This document shows positions 10,674 through 45,771 of a stretch of DNA of 64,000 nt, piece after piece (the stretch's first letter is position 1; each line of letters begins with the position of its first letter). A program made the position numbers and the translations under genes. The DNA lies in contig JBGSRU010000002.1 of NCBI GenBank assembly GCA_041737385.1, positions 205,437 through 269,436 of the forward strand, written 5' to 3'. The stretch comes from Candidatus Saccharimonadales bacterium. Its GTDB lineage: Bacteria; Patescibacteriota; Saccharimonadia; Saccharimonadales; SZUA-47. The notes under the pieces were generated by a model. The model had not been told where the DNA came from, did no database searches, and saw nothing but the letters and a program-made list of their open reading frames with translations.

Positions 10674-10759
10674 GCAGGGTTAGTGAAGCGGTCAAACACG
10701 ACAGACTGTAAATCTGTTGGCTTATGCCTTCGTAGGTTCGAATCCTACACCCTGCACCA
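10674..10759 (+). tRNA. tRNA-Tyr (anticodon GTA), long variable arm, CCA encoded
   Basis: Acceptor GCAGGGT/ACCCTGC, anticodon loop CTGTAAA, T-arm GTAGG TTCGAAT CCTAC, 3' ACCA. Confidence 0.9.
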
Positions 10760-10781
10760 AATTGTTAATATTATGTAGAGT

Positions 10782-10846
10782 GCCACATAAGCTCAGTTGG
10801 AGAGCCTTCAGCGAATAATAATCGCAGTTGCTCTAACCAACTAACT
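10782..10846 (+). pseudogene. tRNA-Thr 5' fragment (acceptor plus D-arm) followed by an inverted D-arm copy
   Basis: 10782-10805 GCCACATAAGCTCAGTTGGAGAGC resembles the 5' 26 nt of the intact tRNA-Thr at 10903. 10830-10845 GCTCTAACCAACTAAC is a near reverse complement of the D-arm. No matching 3' acceptor strand follows. Confidence 0.5.
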
Positions 10847-10902
10847 CTAAAAGCAGCAACTTTAAAAATTAGAACAAATGCACTCAAGTTTAAATACTGT
10901 GT

Positions 10903-10979
10903 GCCACCTTAGCTCAGTTGGTTAGAGCAGCTGTTTTGTAAACAGCAGGTCGTCGGTTCGAATCCGACAGGTGGCTCCA
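10903..10979 (+). tRNA. tRNA-Thr (anticodon TGT), CCA encoded
   Basis: Acceptor GCCACCT/AGGTGGC, D-arm GCTC AGTTGGTTA GAGC, anticodon loop TTTGTAA, T-arm GTCGG TTCGAAT CCGAC. Confidence 0.9.
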
Positions 10980-11174
10980 AAAGTCTCATGGCGGATTTGA
11001 ACCGAAATAAGGTTCGCTATTGCCCAGCGGAATTTATTCCAGCAACGGCGCAATACCACACATCCGACAGGTGGCTCCAAGAGTCTCATGGCGGATTTGA
11101 ACCGAAACTAAGGTTCGCTATTGCCCGTAACACGTTGCTAAGGCGCAATACCATACATCCGACAGGTGGCTCCA
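10962..11174 (+). repeat. Three direct copies of the tRNA-Thr 3' end delimiting two structured units of about 80 nt
   Basis: ATCCGACAGGTGGCTCCA occurs at 10962-10979 (inside the tRNA), 11062-11079 and 11157-11174, giving periods of 100 and 95 nt. The two intervening units share both flanks and differ in a central 16-22 nt. Confidence 0.85.
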
Positions 11175-11185
11175 TTTTTATTTCA

Positions 11186-11260
11186 GCCCCGGTAGCTCAG
11201 TGGTAGAGCGCATCCATGGTAAGGATGAGGTCTCGAGTTCAATCCTCGATTGGGGCTCCA
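11186..11260 (+). tRNA. tRNA-Thr (anticodon GGT), CCA encoded
   Basis: Acceptor GCCCCGG/TTGGGGC (two G-U pairs), anticodon loop ATGGTAA, T-arm CTCGA GTTCAAT CCTCGA region, 3' TCCA. Confidence 0.9.
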
Positions 11261-27771: not shown

Positions 27772-28674
27772 TTATGAAAAATAGGGGAAACCCCACCATT
27801 CATTTGCATTACACGTTACCATTTTTTTGTCGAGATTATCTATTGCAGACATTTCTTCGCCTGTTAACTCAAAATCGTTAATTTCGAAGTTTGACTTAAT
27901 CCTATCGTAGCTTGTGGCCTTGGGTATGGCTGGTGTCGAGCGCTGTTTGGCCCATCTCAAAGCAATTTGTGCAAAAGTTTTATCATGAGCTGAAGCGATA
28001 TTCAGTATCACTTGATCATTAAGTGCTAGATTCCGTGTAGAACTTAATGGTGAATAGGCTGTCACAACAATATTTTCACTGCGGCAAAGTCTTAATAAGT
28101 CTTGTTGAGAATGATACGGATGAACCTCAACCTGATTGATAACCGGCTTAATTCTTGCATAACATATCAAATCTAATAAGTGAGTTGCACTGTAGTTAGC
28201 GACTCCAATAGATTTCACGAGATTATCGTCAACTAGTTTTTCCATCGCCTGCCATGTGTCTTGAAGCGATACGTAAGAAAAAATCGCCAACCCTTTATCA
28301 TCGATGGGTTCAATATCGTCACCTTGTTTAAAAGAAACCGCCCAGTGGACGAGATACAGGTCGAGGTAGTCTATTTGTAGATTATCGAGTGTTTTTTGCA
28401 ATGCGATTTTCACGTCTTGAGGTGCATGGTCAGTGTTCCAAAGTTTGCCTGTTATAAATAACTCATCACGTGAAACTAATCCTGATGAGATAGCCTCGTT
28501 GATTGCTTCTCCGACTTCTTTCTCGTTTCCGTAGACAGAAGCGCAATCTATGTGCCTGTAACCAATCTTTATAGCGTCGATGACTGATTGTTTTGCGCTA
28601 TCATTTTGTAGTCTCCACGTCCCAAAGCCTTGCAATGGAATTTCAAACCCGTTTGATAGTTTTATTGAATTCAT
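27772..28674 (-). CDS. Aldo/keto reductase
   Basis: 300 aa. G.GTW, HIDCASVYGNE and LYLVHW are typical AKR motifs. Confidence 0.9.
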   Translation of the reverse strand: MNSIKLSNGFEIPLQGFGTWRLQNDSAKQSVIDAIKIGYRHIDCASVYGNEKEVGEAINEAISSGLVSRDELFITGKLWNTDHAPQDVKIALQKTLDNLQIDYLDLYLVHWAVSFKQGDDIEPIDDKGLAIFSYVSLQDTWQAMEKLVDDNLVKSIGVANYSATHLLDLICYARIKPVINQVEVHPYHSQQDLLRLCRSENIVVTAYSPLSSTRNLALNDQVILNIASAHDKTFAQIALRWAKQRSTPAIPKATSYDRIKSNFEINDFELTGEEMSAIDNLDKKMVTCNANEWWGFPYFS

Positions 28675-28785
28675 GAATTTAAGTATCTCAAAATAATGAA
28701 TAAAAATACAGAGCTTATGCTTGGCAGCTTCTAGTGGACGAGCTTCGCAAAATCAACTAAGGCTTAAGTTATTCGATGGAACTAT

Positions 28786-29313
28786 TCACTCTCCAATATT
28801 AGTGCCATTTAGCTGCATTATCTGGTTAATAGTAGCGACAACAACGGTGCTTGTTGCTGTTAACGGAGCTTCTTCAGGGCTAAGACAATCCGGTGGTGAT
28901 TCAGTGCTTTTTGATGTCACGAACATAACTTTGGTACTCATACCAAGACCGAACCGCGCAATGTTATGTACTTCTGCCGCCCTGTCTATGCCACTGCGTA
29001 CTTCATGGACGAACCGATCAATAGCCGGTTGTCCTGGATGTTTGCTACAGCGTAGAGCATCGTTATCCGTCAAAGCTACAGCACTACCATCAGGATTTGT
29101 TTCATAGTATTGCTGAAGTAAGTTATCAGCTTGTTCGCGATCACTGTAAGGTACATCTTTTACGAACGATAGAGTGAAAGGCAACATACCGTCATCACTG
29201 CGAAGAGCTCGACTTACTAGGACCTCTGCGCGTTTGGCATGTCTTTTCACTCTTTTCTCTGCATGTGAAGCTGTTCTAAATCTGCGTGGAATTGTTATAG
29301 ATTCTAGTGACAT
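28786..29313 (-). CDS. Hypothetical protein (175 aa) in a GC-richer patch next to the tRNA-Trp array
   Basis: Longest ORF of an overlapping sense/antisense pair. One hand-counted 60-nt line (28981-29040) has 32 G+C, against 19 in a typical line (9121-9180). Confidence 0.5.
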   Translation of the reverse strand: MSLESITIPRRFRTASHAEKRVKRHAKRAEVLVSRALRSDDGMLPFTLSFVKDVPYSDREQADNLLQQYYETNPDGSAVALTDNDALRCSKHPGQPAIDRFVHEVRSGIDRAAEVHNIARFGLGMSTKVMFVTSKSTESPPDCLSPEEAPLTATSTVVVATINQIMQLNGTNIGE

Positions 29314-29381
29314 ATATCACATTACTTTAATATATAAAACACTGTATTGTCAAATTGATTATTAGACATATACATAATGAC

Positions 29382-29530
29382 TAATTTTGGCAGGGGTGAG
29401 CGGGACTTGCCCACACTATGCGGGCCCAGAACTTATTTACTTTCAACAAGTTGAAAATCATTAAGATTCTCTTGCGAAAGTTCTCTGGACTTTCTCACCT
29501 GCAACAACTCCGTTGGTTGACATACAAGTC
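29382..29530 (-). pseudogene. Decayed tRNA-Trp-like copy: degenerate anticodon-arm remnant, T-stem GCAGG, 88-nt insertion A, then T-loop/acceptor 3' end plus CCA
   Basis: Minus strand reads ...GGAGTTGTT GCAGG [TGAGAAAGTCC...AGTGTGGG] CAAGT CCCGC TCACCCCT G CCA. 29382-29399 repeats 29576-29593 exactly (18 nt). Confidence 0.5.
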
Positions 29531-29542
29531 ATGCACGCCCAC

Positions 29543-29573
29543 AAAATCAAAAATCCGACTCTATGGCCGGATT
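29543..29573 (-). terminator. Intrinsic terminator after tRNA-Trp
   Basis: Minus strand: AATCCG GCCATAGAGT CGGATT followed by TTTTTGATTTT. Confidence 0.6.
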
Positions 29574-29581
29574 CTTAATTT

Positions 29582-29657
29582 TGGCAGGGGTGACAGGACT
29601 TGAACCTGCGACACCTGGTTTTGGAGACCAGTGCTCTACCAACTGAGCTACACCCCT
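29582..29657 (-). tRNA. tRNA-Trp (anticodon CCA), CCA end encoded
   Basis: Minus strand: AGGGGTG TA GCTC AGTTGGTA GAGC A CTGGT CTCCAAA ACCAG GTGTC GCAGG TTCAAGT CCTGT CACCCCT G CCA. TATAAT (29672-29667) lies 9 nt upstream. Confidence 0.9.
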
Positions 29658-29690
29658 ATATTGATGATTATACTGTGAAAAGTTCAAATC

Positions 29691-29984
29691 TGACAGGACC
29701 CAGCACCAGAATGAATTCGGTGCGAGGCAAGCTTGCCCACATTCTGTATGCTTAGAACTTTCGTTACTATCAACAAGTTGTTAATCAGAAAGGTTCTCTT
29801 GCAATATGCTTCAGGCATATCTCACCTGCAACACCTGGTTTTGGAGACCACCCCACGGTCTTACTTGAAATGAATTCCAAATCAGCCGTCGGCACGTCTC
29901 ACATCTGGCGCTAATGTGCGCAGGTGCTCCGACCTTGCATACTGCCGCTGGCAGTCTTCACTCTATCAATTGAGCTACACCCCT
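29691..29984 (-). pseudogene. tRNA-Trp-like copy interrupted at three sites and truncated at the 3' end
   Basis: Minus strand: acceptor plus D-arm (29984-29959), about 108-nt insertion I1 (29958-29851), anticodon arm with CCA anticodon plus T-stem (29850-29825), 89-nt insertion B (29824-29736), CAAG, 33-nt insertion (29731-29699), TCCTGTCA (29698-29691). There is no acceptor 3' strand. Confidence 0.6.
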
Positions 29985-30100
29985 TCGTTGCTAATATTTA
30001 GTAGTCGTTAACAGTTTACAATTTTCTTCATTAACTCACAAATTAAAGTCCTATGAGCAATATATTGTAAATATATGTACATCATAGTATAGTTTGTTTA

Positions 30101-30977: not shown

Positions 30978-31016
30978 TTGAATCATCGCTACTCATCTGT
31001 TATAAATAATACTAAT

Positions 31017-31679
31017 ATGTCAGCAAAAGTTCAGACCAATAAACCGTTACTCGTGCTTCTCTATGGTTTTCCAGGAGCGGGTAAGACTCATTTCTCTAGA
31101 CAACTATCAGAGAACTTGGCGTCAGCTCATGTGCACGGCGATAGAATCCGCTACGAACTGTTTGATGACCCACAATATGATCGACAAGAAAACGCTATCG
31201 TAACGCAGCTCATGCAGTATATGAGCGAAGAATTCTTATCTGCAGGAATCAATGTTATCTATGACATGAATGCTATGCGTAAAGGACAAAGATCTGCTCT
31301 GCGAGAAATGGCAAGAAAAAAGAACGCTAAAACTATAGTTGTTTGGTTCCAAATGGATGCAGACACCGCATTTGATCGAACTCAAAATCGAGACAGACGC
31401 AAAGCTGATGATAAGTACGCAACGGAATACACGCACGATGTCTATAAGAGATACATTAGCCATATGCAACACCCGCAACTTGAAGATTATGTTGTAGTGA
31501 GCGGTAAACACACTTATCCTAGTCAACAAACAGCGTTCTTCAAGAAACTTATGGAAATGGGTTACATTGACACCCAAAACGCACAGACTAAAGTTGCAAT
31601 GCCGGGGCTCGTCAATCTCGTCCCTCGAATGACCAATGGTCGAGTAGACATGAGTCGACGAAACATCTCTATTAGATAA
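31017..31679 (+). CDS. P-loop kinase-like protein (AAA_33 / zeta-toxin-like fold)
   Basis: LLVLLYGFPGAGKTHFS Walker A close to the N-terminus when started at ATG 31017. Confidence 0.7.
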   Translation: MSAKVQTNKPLLVLLYGFPGAGKTHFSRQLSENLASAHVHGDRIRYELFDDPQYDRQENAIVTQLMQYMSEEFLSAGINVIYDMNAMRKGQRSALREMARKKNAKTIVVWFQMDADTAFDRTQNRDRRKADDKYATEYTHDVYKRYISHMQHPQLEDYVVVSGKHTYPSQQTAFFKKLMEMGYIDTQNAQTKVAMPGLVNLVPRMTNGRVDMSRRNISIR

Positions 31680-44433: not shown

Positions 44434-44462
44434 TTGAGTCAACTATCTGCATATGTTATAAT
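44434..44462 (+). promoter_or_regulatory. Promoter of the rplJ-rplL operon
   Basis: TTGAGT 44434-44439, 17-nt spacer, TATAAT 44457-44462. Confidence 0.55.
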
Positions 44463-44790
44463 TGTTTTGTTACCGAAGACAGTGGCTGCCATAGAATAAG
44501 GCTTAATTGTGCCACCGAGGCGATATGATTAGCAATAATCATAATTGTATTCGAGCACTAGGATGCGTCTTCTGGATTAACCCAAGGAGACGTTTTTTAT
44601 TTCTCGGTAACAAATCACTAAAATAGGTCGATAGATTAGTGAAAAAACTAATGACAAAGGAAGGATGCTTTACTGCAGCTCTTGTAGCCAATAGGAAAAA
44701 GAGCAGCCGGAAGAGAAGATTCATTCGACTCTACCGCGCGCCTAAGAAAAAACCATAGGTTTTGTCTTGAGTAGCGAAGCGGAATATTAA
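44463..44790 (+). promoter_or_regulatory. Long rplJ 5' leader with internal terminator-like hairpin (candidate L10-type autoregulatory leader)
   Basis: About 320 nt lie between the promoter and the rplJ ATG. CGTCTTC 44566-44572 pairs with GGAGACG 44586-44592, followed by T6. Position is analogous to the L10 leaders of other bacteria. The family assignment was not verified. Confidence 0.4.
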
Positions 44791-45312
44791 ATGGCATTAA
44801 CCAAAGAAAAGAAGAACGAAATAGTCAAAGAGCTTACCGAACTACTAGGTTCAGCGAAAATGACTGTTGTCGTTAAATACGAAGGTACTACTGTAAAAGC
44901 GATGCAACAACTTCGAGCGAAAGCAGAAGAAAACGGCACTGTTGTTAAAGTAGTGAAGAACCGTTTGGTTCAAAAAGCTTTCGAAAGCACTGACACACAC
45001 AAAGACGTTGATACAAGCGCAATGCAGGGAATGCTTATGTATGCTTTCAACGCTGATGACGAAGTCGCACCTGCTCAGGTTATTTATGAAATAGCCAAAA
45101 GCGAGAAACAACTAGAGTTTATCGGTGCATTTGATGCAACCGGAAAATCTCTTGGTGCTGACGAAGTTAAAGCACTCGCACAACTTCCATCACGTGAAGT
45201 AATGATTGCGACTGTAATAAACACGCTTAAATCACCTGTAAATGGTGTGATGAGTGGATTAAAAGGAAACTTACACGGCTTGCTTGATGCAGTCGCTGCA
45301 AGCAAAGCGTAG
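44791..45312 (+). CDS. rplJ: 50S ribosomal protein L10
   Basis: 173 aa with a typical L10 N-terminus (K...V.EL...L......V...Y.G.TV..M..LR), upstream of rplL. Confidence 0.95.
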   Translation: MALTKEKKNEIVKELTELLGSAKMTVVVKYEGTTVKAMQQLRAKAEENGTVVKVVKNRLVQKAFESTDTHKDVDTSAMQGMLMYAFNADDEVAPAQVIYEIAKSEKQLEFIGAFDATGKSLGADEVKALAQLPSREVMIATVINTLKSPVNGVMSGLKGNLHGLLDAVAASKA

Positions 45313-45390
45313 GCTTTGTATAACTGATATCTAATAGTTGATAGCTAAAATAGCTCACTCAAATATAATTAACGAAGGAAATTTAATATT

Positions 45391-45771
45391 ATGGCAACAG
45401 ATTTGAAAAAATTTGCAGAACAACTAGTCGGTTTAACCGTTCTAGAAGTAAACGAACTACAGACAATACTAAAAGATGAATATAACATCGAACCAGCTGC
45501 TGCTGCAGTTGCAGTTGCAGGTCCTGCTGCTGATGGCGGTGCTGATGCAGAAGACGCAAAGAGCGAATACGACGTTATTCTTAAAGACGCTGGTGCTCAA
45601 AAAGTAGCAGTTATCAAAGCTGTTAAAGACATCACAGGCCTCGGTCTTGGTGAAGCAAAAGCTATCGTTGATGGTGCTCCTAAACCAGTACTAGAAAAAG
45701 CTCCTAAAGAAGATGCTGAAAAAGCTAAAACAGCTCTAGAAGCTGCTGGCGCAACAGTAGAACTAGCGTAA
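45391..45771 (+). CDS. rplL: 50S ribosomal protein L7/L12
   Basis: 126 aa. Ala-rich hinge and C-terminal KI.VIK.V...TGLGL.EAK..V. Confidence 0.95.

What the first reader, a model, noticed from the sequence alone, without database searches (positions are those of the whole stretch)
29410..29960. Three related structured insertions with conserved termini and covarying hairpins (TGAR-hairpin-GCAAG ... GTGGG)
On the minus strand the three insertions start alike:
- A (29497-29410): TGAG-AAAGT-ccagaga-ACTTT-c-GCAAG
- B (29824-29736): TGAG-ATATGC-ctgaa-GCATAT-t-GCAAG
- I1 (29960-29851): TGAAG-ACTGCC-agc-GGCAGT-at-GCAAG

The first hairpin sits at the same position in all three, but its sequence is entirely different in each. 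That is covariation.

A and B continue with a long second hairpin. Its outer helix keeps a bulged base and changes compensatorily (A: AGAA-t-CTTA with TAAG-TTCT; B: AGAA-c-CTTTC with GAAAG-TTCT). Its inner helix, around CAAC-TT-GTTG, shows one further compensatory pair. I1 has a different long hairpin at this place (GTCGG-AGCAC...GTGC-CGAC).

All three end in GTGGG(G). I1 and the tail after B share GAATTCATT shortly before a terminal TGGGG (I1) or CTGGG (tail after B).

They sit at two different positions of tRNA-Trp-like scaffolds (D-arm/anticodon junction and T-loop). They have no terminal inverted repeats and no coding capacity.

This looks like a family of small structured RNAs or intron-like or mobile insertions selected for fold rather than sequence. 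I cannot match it to a known class by eye.
Basis: partly seen in the sequence, partly recalled or inferred. Interest (0 to 1): 0.85.

Follow-up and report, generated by a model that had tools for sequence, protein, structure and literature searches.

The report
Structured RNA modules in tRNA-Trp paralogs
The three "insertions" are real, base-paired, non-coding modules that sit inside degenerate copies of the tRNA-Trp gene flanking the working tRNA-Trp; the same arrangement recurs, with compensatory base changes, in related Saccharimonadia (candidate phyla radiation) bacteria and matches no described RNA family.

Summary
A (29497-29410), B (29824-29736) and I1 (29960-29851) each fold as three consecutive hairpins, P1-AG-P2-GG-P3. 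All three begin with the motif UGA(A)G-hairpin-GCAAG, which occurs nowhere else in the window (0.09 expected).

A and B are not independent insertions: they belong to a 327-nt local duplication.

The key new result is comparative. In six further Saccharimonadia lineages with shared gene order, an intact tRNA-Trp plus terminator is followed by the same unit: a tRNA-like 5' part, a T-stem whose loop carries the A-type module, then a copy of the tRNA-Trp 3' end with CCA.

- 93% of predicted pair cells are paired.
- 11 pairs show compensatory changes (5.0 +/- 1.3 in shuffles).
- G-U outnumbers A-C 17 to 6.
- There is no conserved ORF, no Rfam match and no dispersed copy in 532 kb.
- I1-type modules recur in tRNA 5'-half copies upstream of tRNA-Trp in three lineages.
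- Some relatives lack the units.

Best reading (0.45): conserved non-coding RNAs derived from tandem tRNA-Trp paralogs, function unknown. Rivals: intron-like or mobile module, miniature att-flanked cassette, tRNA-Trp leader/trailer element, neutral debris.

The parts
29961..29984 (-). F1: copy of tRNA-Trp nt 1-24 (acceptor 5' strand + D arm); start of the upstream paralog ('U unit')
   Evidence: 22/24 identical to the intact tRNA. Equivalent 5'-half copies lie upstream of tRNA-Trp in L153, L162 and L090.
29851..29960 (-). I1 module: three hairpins (P1 with a UGA..GCA base, AG, P2, GG, P3) inserted at the D-arm/anticodon-arm junction of the U unit, replacing CAC
   Evidence: Fold z = -2.7; motif test. 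The 3' 41 nt are 83% identical to L153, by my count from the sequences, with a compensatory change in the hairpin. An L090 counterpart shares GCAAGG-YCGGAGC and folds the same way.
29824..29850 (-). F2: copy of tRNA-Trp nt 28-54 (anticodon arm with CCA, variable loop, T-stem 5' strand)
   Evidence: 26/27 identical to the intact tRNA.
29736..29824 (-). B module: A-type three-hairpin module in the T loop of the U unit; a decaying paralog of A (P3 and 3' tail degenerate)
   Evidence: Covariance model 98 bits, against 117 for A. 69% identical to A over the module, with hairpin 1 fully replaced but still paired.
29697..29735 (-). Degenerate tRNA 3'-end remnant (CAAGCTTGCCTCGCACC) plus the hairpin GCACC-GAATTCATTCT-GGTGC
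   Evidence: Alignment with the flank of A. No relative has this part, so its status is unclear.
29667..29696 (-). Promoter-like site of tRNA-Trp (CTGTCA-18-TATAAT)
   Evidence: 10/12 match. The block TCCTGTCAGATTTGAAY..TATAAT is conserved upstream of tRNA-Trp in L148.
29582..29657 (-). Intact tRNA-Trp (CCA), with encoded CCA end
   Evidence: ARAGORN; Rfam tRNA 72 bits. Identical tRNA in L013, L022, L044 and L095.
29543..29581 (-). Terminator-like hairpin (UCCGGC-CAUAGA-GUCGGA) followed by a U run
   Evidence: Read from the sequence. The hairpin is drawn as a terminator-type stem in the weak AgrB and rnk alignments. The consensus scan did not list it. A similar sequence follows the tRNA in L095 and the A unit in L162.
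29498..29542 (-). 5' domain of the A unit. It is tRNA-like: GGGCGTG (acceptor 5' strand), TGAC-TTGTAT-GTCA (D arm), CAAC-GGA-GTTG (short hairpin with no anticodon), GCAGG (T-stem 5' strand)
   Evidence: Read by hand from the sequences. Pair 6:67 is U-A here, A-U in L133 and C-G in L022. The D stem is TGAC/GTCA here, CAGA/TCTG in L133, GGAC/GTCT in L162 and GTGA/TCAC in L022. Not statistically tested.
29410..29497 (-). A module: P1, P2 and P3 in the loop of the T-stem-like helix
   Evidence: Fold z = -4.0. Consensus structure and covariation. Covariance model 117 bits.
29388..29409 (-). 3' tail of the A unit: copy of tRNA-Trp nt 56-76 (CAAGTCCCGCTCACCCCTGCCA). The next 6 nt (AAATTA, 29387-29382) also repeat the tRNA's 3' flank
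   Evidence: 28 nt at 93% identity, and 18 nt identical including the flank. The same tail occurs in all relatives.

Best explanation
The 790-nt gene-free stretch holds the working tRNA-Trp gene flanked by two diverged tandem paralogs of that gene. These paralogs have become hosts, or scaffolds, for a structured three-hairpin RNA module.

The downstream paralog (A unit, 29542-29388) keeps a tRNA-like layout: an imperfect acceptor stem, a D arm, a stub in place of the anticodon arm, a T stem, and the acceptor 3' strand with CCA. Its T loop is expanded by the 88-nt module P1-AG-P2-GG-P3. The upstream paralog (29984-29697) keeps the tRNA 5' part. It carries a related module (I1) after the D arm and a decaying duplicate (B) of the A module.

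Shown: the units are old, inherited with the tRNA-Trp block across a Saccharimonadia clade, and under selection for RNA structure on the tRNA-sense strand.

Inferred: they are transcribed with or after tRNA-Trp. Their tRNA-like ends let tRNA-processing enzymes (RNase P, 3' trimming, CCA maintenance) release and stabilise an RNA of about 150 nt. Its conserved junction, the invariant P3 and the conserved CUUG apex of P2 would then form a binding or catalytic surface.

The cellular role is not known. Units are lost or reshuffled by recombination between the repeated tRNA 3' ends.
For: 1. The same unit follows tRNA-Trp plus terminator in L022, L028, L090, L133 and L162-L167. Gene order is shared for the KTI12/PSTK-like kinase, YgjP-like protein, His kinase, purA and purB.
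2. Window 29690-29382 aligns with L162 4862-5170 at 76% nucleotide identity, against 71-73% for the neighbouring genes. Blocks such as GGGCCCGCAGAATGTGGGCAAGTC are identical in four lineages.
3. Structure: 34 pairs, 93% of cells paired (84% in shuffles, 24-51% when partners are slid). 11 pairs carry compensatory changes, against 5.0 +/- 1.3 in shuffles (0 of 500 shuffles reach this).
4. G-U outnumbers A-C 17 to 6 in paired cells. This favours the tRNA-sense strand.
5. No frame stays open in L162, so the element is not coding.
6. tRNA-like 5' domain: the acceptor pair 6:67 and the D stem covary among lineages (sequences; read by hand).
7. Modules found in other contexts fold the same way: the L090 U unit, the second L028 module and I1.
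8. A second kind of unit in the same place has the same 3' end, a covarying hairpin and a closing helix GGACUUG/CAAGUCC.
9. No Rfam family matches.
Against: - No expression data. No convincing promoter of its own, and a terminator-like hairpin lies between the tRNA and the A unit, so transcription would need read-through.
- The unit is dispensable. It is absent in L044 and L148/L149 and reduced to a remnant in L153.
- The acceptor stem is imperfect (5-6 of 7 pairs) and is not recognisable in L162, L028 or L090.
- The near-identity of the 3' tail to the resident tRNA could reflect gene conversion or att-type recombination rather than function. In L162 both carry U67.
- Only 7 sequences from about 6 lineages are aligned. 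P3 and most of the closing helix do not vary, so they say nothing either way.
- No function can be named.
Confidence: 0.45

Rival explanations
1. Miniature integrative cassettes or att-site relics. Each unit (terminator + 5' region + module + copy of the tRNA 3' end) would be what remains of, or a tiny non-autonomous version of, an element that a tyrosine integrase inserts into the T-loop-to-3'-end region of tRNA-Trp. Arrays would build up by repeated integration.
For: - Direct repeats of the tRNA 3' end start in the T loop, and in the window include 6 nt of flank.
- Units occur as arrays: type 1 then type 2 in L162.
- Presence or absence varies among relatives.
- Terminator types are swapped between tRNA and unit in different lineages.
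- Accessory genes downstream vary: an orphan ORF, an aldo/keto reductase whose closest relatives are at most 68% identical, and HTH-Fic in L022.
- T loops are known integrase targets (Ms6, PMC1762012).
Against: - No integrase or other mobility gene was found in the proteins scanned near the window locus or in the 10 kb of L022.
- No match to the conserved A-type blocks in viral contigs, and only the tRNA part matches phage records.
- An att remnant starts at the crossover. Here tRNA-derived sequence lies on both sides of the module, and a tRNA-like acceptor 5' strand and D arm covary.
- The interior is kept with RNA-type compensatory changes and G-U pairs.
- DNA arm sites would not evolve that way.
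- Differential loss by recombination between the repeats explains presence/absence without integration.
Confidence: 0.2
2. Intron-like or RNA-level mobile module. A new small class of bacterial tRNA intron or ribozyme would colonise loops of tRNA-Trp genes (D-arm junction, D loop, T loop) and be removed or self-cleaved from the transcript. The interrupted copies survive because an intact copy is present.
For: - Related modules sit at three different loop positions of tRNA-like hosts.
- L028 carries two modules in series.
- Junction nucleotides are conserved while stems vary, as in ribozymes.
- Every 5' junction follows G-U and the modules end in GGG.
- Patescibacteria are unusually rich in tRNA introns (PMC13011429).
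Against: - Excision never restores a tRNA. One to three nucleotides are missing and the host has no anticodon arm (sequences).
- In every lineage seen, the host is a degenerate paralog and the functional tRNA-Trp is uninterrupted.
- No group I, group II or small-ribozyme model matches at E <= 10.
- No copies in other tRNA genes of the window or in 532 kb of related loci.
- No bulge-helix-bulge motif could be drawn by hand.
Confidence: 0.15
3. Cis-acting leader and trailer of the tRNA-Trp transcript. The units would act only in cis, for example to control termination, processing or stability of pre-tRNA-Trp. They could do so by offering competing copies of its 5' half and 3' end, or sequences complementary to its T loop.
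For: - The units are always adjacent to and co-oriented with tRNA-Trp.
- In L090 the upstream unit abuts the tRNA with no room for a promoter, so there it must be a 5' leader.
- The 5' regions of both unit types contain GACUUG, complementary to the CAAGUC of the T loop and tail.
- No unit has a promoter of its own.
Against: - Relatives manage without the units (L044, L148).
- The most conserved parts (P3, base of P2, junction) have no evident complementarity to the tRNA.
- A terminator separates the tRNA from the A unit.
Confidence: 0.1
4. Neutral debris: tRNA-Trp pseudogene fragments and filler DNA from local duplications, with no selected structure.
For: - Unit 1 lacks an acceptor 3' strand. 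B has lost P3 and its fold is no better than shuffles.
- The L153 downstream unit is a remnant.
- Quasi-palindrome template switching can keep hairpins complementary without selection (general knowledge).
Against: Nucleotide conservation equals or exceeds that of neighbouring genes across lineages whose kinase is 62-89% identical. Compensatory changes occur in three helices. Blocks of 24 nt are invariant.
Confidence: 0.05

Closest known systems
tRNA-like non-coding RNAs built on an acceptor/T-arm minihelix (tmRNA; bacterial Y-RNA-like YrlA)
   Same: A tRNA-derived or tRNA-mimicking end with CCA, joined to a large non-tRNA structured domain. No anticodon. Plausibly matured by tRNA enzymes.
   Different: - In tmRNA the extra domain replaces the anticodon and variable region. 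Here it sits inside the T loop, or after the D arm.
- There is no tag reading frame, and ARAGORN finds no tmRNA.
- YrlA (RF02553) scores only 13.7 bits, on a different stretch.
- The 3' end copies tRNA-Trp, not tRNA-Ala.
- The units are tandem paralogs of the resident tRNA gene.
[quoted passage not shown]
   Same: Same phylum. Structured, non-coding interruptions of tRNA genes that annotation tools miss.
   Different: Those introns are at least about 200 nt, have the group I catalytic core, sit in the anticodon loop (35/36 and others) and splice precisely. These modules are 85-110 nt, have no Rfam intron hit, sit in the T loop or D-arm region, and do not leave a tRNA when removed.
Non-canonical archaeal and red-algal tRNA introns (bulge-helix-bulge) in D and T arms; split and permuted tRNA genes (PMC4090602, PMC3978253)
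   Same: Interruptions at D-arm and T-loop positions. Separate 5'-half-like and 3'-half-like gene pieces near each other.
   Different: Those are removed by a protein endonuclease at a BHB motif and restore an exact tRNA. Here the organism is bacterial, no BHB could be drawn, the exons do not restore a tRNA, and an intact gene lies alongside.
tRNA 3'-end direct repeats left by integrases that target the T loop (e.g. mycobacteriophage Ms6, PMC1762012)
   Same: A repeat of the tRNA sequence from the T loop to the 3' end lies downstream of an intact tRNA. The neighbourhood is variable.
   Different: Only about 170-290 nt lie between the repeats. There is no integrase. The interior is conserved as an RNA fold, and tRNA-derived sequence also lies 5' of the module.
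Engineered 'tRNA scaffold' RNAs (recombinant RNAs inserted into a tRNA body; from my own knowledge, not checked here)
   Same: A foreign structured RNA is carried inside a tRNA-shaped body that would give processing and stability.
   Different: That is a laboratory design with the insert in the anticodon arm. This would be a natural case with inserts in the T loop or D-arm junction. The parallel is an analogy only.

Membership tests
Group I intron | Conserved catalytic core (P3-P9) detectable with the Rfam Intron_gpI model; length usually above 200 nt | tested here: not met
   No hit at E <= 10 in the window region, L162 or L090. The modules are 85-110 nt.
Group I intron | Excision joins the exons into a functional RNA | tested here: not met
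   ARAGORN finds no tRNA after removal of the modules. It finds one only when CAC and T are added back.
Bulge-helix-bulge (archaeal-type) tRNA intron | BHB motif at the exon-intron junctions and exact restoration of the tRNA | tested here: not met
   Restoration fails. No 3-4-3 bulge-helix-bulge could be drawn from the junction sequences (by hand). Presence of a splicing endonuclease gene was not tested.
Small self-cleaving ribozymes (hammerhead, twister, twister-sister, pistol, hatchet, hairpin, HDV-like) | Match to the family covariance model | tested here: not met
   cmscan at E <= 10 on three lineages lists none of them. Catalysis itself is not testable here.
IS200/IS605-type ends, PATE, MITE | Many dispersed, near-identical copies with family-specific end hairpins; a transposase somewhere in the genome | tested here: not met
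   No other copy in the 64 kb window or in 532 kb of related loci. Hairpin sequences differ in every copy. The rest of the genome was not available.
Integrase att remnant at a tRNA gene | Direct repeat of the tRNA 3' part bounding the inserted DNA | tested here: met
   28 nt at 93% identity, 18 nt identical including 6 nt of flank. The same holds in relatives.
Integrase att remnant at a tRNA gene | Integrase or other mobile-element genes, or an element body, between or next to the repeats | tested here: not met
   Pfam, PHROGs and NCBIfam scans of neighbours in the window and L022 show none. Only 166 nt lie between the repeats.
tmRNA | tRNA-Ala-like ends plus a tag reading frame | tested here: not met
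   ARAGORN tmRNA search is negative in the window and relatives. No conserved open frame.
tRNA gene paralog or pseudogene from tandem duplication | Colinear homology to the neighbouring tRNA gene, including flanks | tested here: met
   F1 is 92%, F2 96% and the 3' tail 93% identical to the intact tRNA-Trp, in gene order. The covariance model ends match true tRNA T-arm/3' ends at 24 bits.
Any Rfam 15 family | Score at or above the gathering threshold | tested here: not met
   In the window, only tRNA and the L10 leader reach threshold.

The most novel reading that the evidence does not exclude
The three-hairpin module (UGA..GCA-based P1, AG, P2 with a CUUG apex, GG, invariant P3) is a new class of autonomous RNA element in candidate-phyla-radiation bacteria. 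It would be either a small ribozyme or intron that colonises tRNA loops, or the working part of a natural tRNA-scaffolded RNA with a dedicated partner. The tRNA-Trp locus would serve as its nursery.
Probability: 0.3. Interest if true: 0.9.

Novelty: categorically new. Interest (0 to 1): 0.72.

Why it matters
Candidate-phyla-radiation bacteria have tiny genomes with little spare DNA. Even so, this clade keeps about 150-300 nt of structured, non-coding sequence beside its single tRNA-Trp gene.

If these are working RNAs, they would be a new tRNA-derived RNA class, and the first natural case I know of in which a structured domain is carried in the T loop of a tRNA body. This would show how duplicated tRNA genes can be recruited for new RNA functions.

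If they are instead intron-like or cassette-like, they would reveal a new way of interrupting or decorating bacterial tRNA genes.

Either way, the covariance model made here allows a direct survey of genomes, and the hypotheses are testable with one small-RNA-seq data set.

Tried and rejected
- Genome-collection scan with the neighbouring aldo/keto reductase. The best hit was a Saccharimonadales MAG at 65% identity with no shared gene order. It served only to place the organism.
- The 175-aa ORF next to the locus is an orphan. Its only contig breaks inside the repeat.
- First metagenome pattern, taken from the interior shared by A and B: 0 hits. Viral-contig scans: 0 hits, or one chance hit in a 5' UTR.
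- Phage blastn: only the tRNA part matches.
- Weak similarities of A and I1 to 56.0-56.2 kb lie inside a membrane-protein gene and are chance matches.
- The idea that the 236-aa neighbour and the P-loop kinase form an RNA-repair or splicing pair: the 236-aa protein looks like a membrane protein with no Pfam match.
- The idea that the 110-nt I1 is homologous to the 110 nt at the same offset in the second repeat: identity is at random level.
- Hidden tRNA similarity inside the modules: none.
- Integron attC, hairpin ribozyme, hammerhead and group II 5' end (GUGAG) resemblances, considered by eye: none is conserved across lineages or supported by Rfam.
- A loop-tail pairing between the P2 apex (CUUG) and CAAG: no covariation in L090 or L028.
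- Kinase-anchored look-ups in several lineages (P0125, P0135, P0139, P0134, P0136, P0126) returned loci with no tRNA-Trp detected near the kinase.
- MAFFT/RNAalifold on the I1-type units failed to align them. Their comparison is by hand and by single-sequence folds.
Full report
**What is at the locus**

All features below are on the minus strand of the gene-free stretch 29314-30100. In order:
- a promoter-like site;
- a copy of tRNA-Trp nt 1-24 (29984-29961);
- I1 (29960-29851);
- a copy of tRNA-Trp nt 28-54 (29850-29824);
- B (29824-29736);
- a degenerate tail;
- a promoter-like site (29696-29667);
- the only intact tRNA-Trp (29657-29582);
- a terminator-like hairpin with a U run;
- a 45-nt stretch ending in GTTGCAGGT;
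- A (29497-29410);
- a 22-nt copy of the tRNA 3' end with CCA (29409-29388), followed by the same 6 nt that follow the real tRNA.

**Check of the observation**

The stated sequences, hairpins and termini are present. The composite motif TGA(A)G-hairpin-GCAAG occurs three times in 128 kb of sequence (both strands), only at A, B and I1. Shuffles give 0.09. The motif was defined after the fact, so this is indicative rather than a formal probability.

A and I1 fold better than shuffles (z = -4.0 and -2.7). B does not (z = -0.9).

Four corrections are needed:
- A and B, together with part of their 5' flank, are exactly 327 nt apart, as are the two tRNA 5' fragments. They are paralogs from one local duplication, so they count once.
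- I1 shows no significant overall sequence similarity to A or B.
- The shared GAATTCATT is not significant.
- Removing the elements does not give back a tRNA.

**Organism**

The closest relatives of neighbouring proteins are annotated as Candidatus Saccharimonadales, Saccharibacteria or Patescibacteria. The window therefore comes from a Saccharimonadia (candidate phyla radiation) genome. The source contig is 531 kb.

**Relatives**

Patterns taken from the interior of A and B found nothing. Anchoring on the slowly evolving tRNA 3' part did find relatives.

Among the 120 loci returned, those whose tRNA-Trp is identical or nearly identical to the window's showed the same architecture. Further loci were reached through homologs of the neighbouring P-loop kinase.

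Gene order is shared around these loci: kinase, YgjP-like protein, histidine kinase, purA and purB.

The A-type unit follows tRNA-Trp plus terminator in six further lineages:
- L133 (kinase 89% identical);
- L162-L167 (73%);
- L028 (63%);
- L022;
- L090.

Its layout is constant: about 40-70 nt, then ..GGU | GAGA-hairpin-Y-GCAAGRRAAYCUU-long hairpin-AAGUUCYGG-GCCCGCAGAAUGUGGGC | AAGUCCUGUCNCCCCUGCCA.

**Structure**

RNAalifold on seven copies gives four elements:
- a closing helix made by the T-stem 5' strand;
- P1, whose base (U-A, G-C, an A/G mismatch) is invariant and whose top differs in every lineage;
- P2, with a conserved base that includes a bulged pyrimidine, a variable middle and a conserved AACUUGUU apex;
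- P3, which is invariant.

Counting pairs:
- 93% of cells are standard pairs, against 84% in column shuffles and 24-51% when partners are slid.
- 11 pairs carry changes on both sides, against 5.0 +/- 1.3 in shuffles (0 of 500 shuffles reach this).

The closing strand can pair equally well with the T-stem 3' strand (88.6% of cells) or with CCUGC at the 3' end (85.7%). In L022 all three segments changed together.

G-U pairs outnumber A-C 17 to 6, which points to the tRNA-sense strand. No reading frame is conserved, and L162 has none longer than 39 codons.

**tRNA-like 5' domain (read by hand)**

I read this from the sequences; it has not been tested statistically. The 5' part of the unit keeps a tRNA-like order:

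| Feature | Window | L133 | L162 | L022 |
|---|---|---|---|---|
| Acceptor 5' strand | GGGCGUG | GGGUGAG | not recognisable | AUGGCCG |
| Pair 6:67 | U-A | A-U | - | C-G |
| D stem (4 bp) | UGAC/GUCA | CAGA/UCUG | GGAC/GUCU | GUGA/UCAC |

These are followed by a short hairpin with no anticodon. The acceptor 5' strand also cannot be recognised in L028 or L090.

**Other module copies**

- I1-type modules lie in tRNA 5'-half copies just upstream of tRNA-Trp in L153 and L090. The 3' 41 nt in L153 are 83% identical to the window's I1 (my count), with a compensatory change. The L090 copy shares GCAAGG-YCGGAGC and sits inside the D loop.
- L162 has only a 16-nt hairpin at that place.
- The L090 insert, the second module of L028 and I1 each fold alone as P1, P2, P3 (z = -2.5, -4.5 and -2.7).
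- A second kind of unit ('type 2') occupies the same position in L013 and L095, and follows the type-1 unit in L162. It has a closing helix GGACUUG/CAAGUCC, a hairpin with six covarying pairs and the same 3' tail.

**Distribution**

A covariance model built from the seven copies was run over the window and 65 loci, 532 kb in all:
- It hits only these units (98-130 bits; L028 55 bits).
- It hits true tRNA T-arm/3' ends at about 24 bits, as expected from its ends.
- It hits type-2 units at 15-19 bits.
- There are no dispersed copies.

Units are absent in L044 and L148/L149, and the one in L153 is reduced to a remnant. In other kinase-anchored loci (for example L138-L147 and L160-L161) ARAGORN found no tRNA-Trp.

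The two terminator types after the tRNA and after the unit are exchanged between lineages. The L095 arrangement equals that of L162 minus the type-1 unit. This is as expected from recombination between the repeated 3' ends.

**Known families**

- Rfam 15 gives nothing but tRNA at E <= 10 in three lineages.
- Phage, viral and PHROG searches give nothing beyond the tRNA.
- No integrase or transposase was found in the proteins scanned near the window locus or in L022.
- Full-text searches found only the group I introns in anticodon loops of Patescibacteria tRNAs (PMC13011429), which are a different thing.

**Interpretation**

Shown: a conserved, non-coding, base-paired unit derived from tRNA-Trp lies beside tRNA-Trp in a Saccharimonadia clade. 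Its module recurs at other loop positions of tRNA-Trp-like copies.

Inferred: it acts as an RNA. tRNA-processing enzymes handle its ends. The arrays arose by tandem duplication of the tRNA gene with its terminator, followed by differential loss.

I put 0.45 on this reading. The rivals are:
- att-flanked miniature cassette, 0.20;
- intron-like or mobile RNA module, 0.15;
- cis-acting leader/trailer of pre-tRNA-Trp, 0.10;
- neutral debris, 0.05 (still plausible only for B and the tail at 29697-29735).

The remaining 0.05 is for something not considered.

**Limits**

- No expression data.
- Only about six lineages.
- The tRNA-like 5' domain and the I1-type comparison rest on hand alignment.
- The rest of the source genome could not be searched.
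- The motif statistic is post hoc.

Noticed in passing
L013 461-612; L095 5350-5478; L162 5203-5333: A second kind of structured unit ('type 2') lies downstream of tRNA-Trp. It has a 5'-3' closing helix GGACUUG/CAAGUCC, a hairpin with six covarying pairs, a conserved UUUUCCYUGCUUGGCYGA block, and the same tRNA-Trp 3' tail. In L162 it follows the type-1 unit in tandem.
   Followed up: partly
window 29667-29696; L148 2866-2896: The promoter-like region of tRNA-Trp (TCCTGTCAGATTTGAAY...TATAAT) is conserved between lineages. It contains a 9-nt match to the tRNA's own T-stem/acceptor (GTCCTGTCA). The GATTTGAA part recurs in the 5' regions of the units and inside I1.
   Followed up: partly
window 30978-31679 (+) and homologs in L028, L044, L095, L133, L153, L162: A P-loop kinase lies within a few kb of the tRNA-Trp block in several lineages, always followed by a YgjP-like metallopeptidase and a PAS histidine kinase. 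It hits AAA_33, KTI12, PSTK (L-seryl-tRNA(Sec) kinase) and the polynucleotide kinase domain of Pnkp. KTI12 and PSTK are tRNA-binding kinases. The kinase also occurs in lineages where no tRNA-Trp was found nearby, so the link is loose.
   Followed up: partly
window 27772-29313 (-): The genes just downstream of the A unit look like accessory content. One is a 175-aa ORF with no homolog among 5.8 billion clusters. The other is an aldo/keto reductase whose closest relatives are only 64-68% identical. Relatives carry other genes at this place, for example HTH-Fic in L022.
   Followed up: partly
window versus L133 and L162: The whole tRNA-Trp block is inverted relative to the kinase gene: divergent in the window, co-oriented in L133 and L162.
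   Followed up: no
L068 906-981: In an unrelated AT-rich contig, a 3' fragment of a tRNA-Trp begins in the anticodon loop and is preceded by unrelated sequence. This is the classical look of an integrase att remnant and a useful contrast to the units studied here.
   Followed up: no
L001 (Logan contig of the same organism), end at window 29638: The short-read contig carrying the same orphan gene stops inside the tRNA-Trp. This fits an assembly break at the repeated tRNA fragments. Such loci are likely to be under-represented in short-read assemblies.
   Followed up: no
window 10674-11260 and 44455-45771: The usual bacterial cluster is broken up here. tRNA-Tyr/Thr/Thr are not followed by a long same-strand ORF where tuf would be expected. 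rplJ-rplL, with the L10 leader, are preceded by two small ORFs of the wrong size for rplK-rplA. Several relatives carry secE-nusG (and in L160/L161 also L11) a few kb from the kinase.
   Followed up: no
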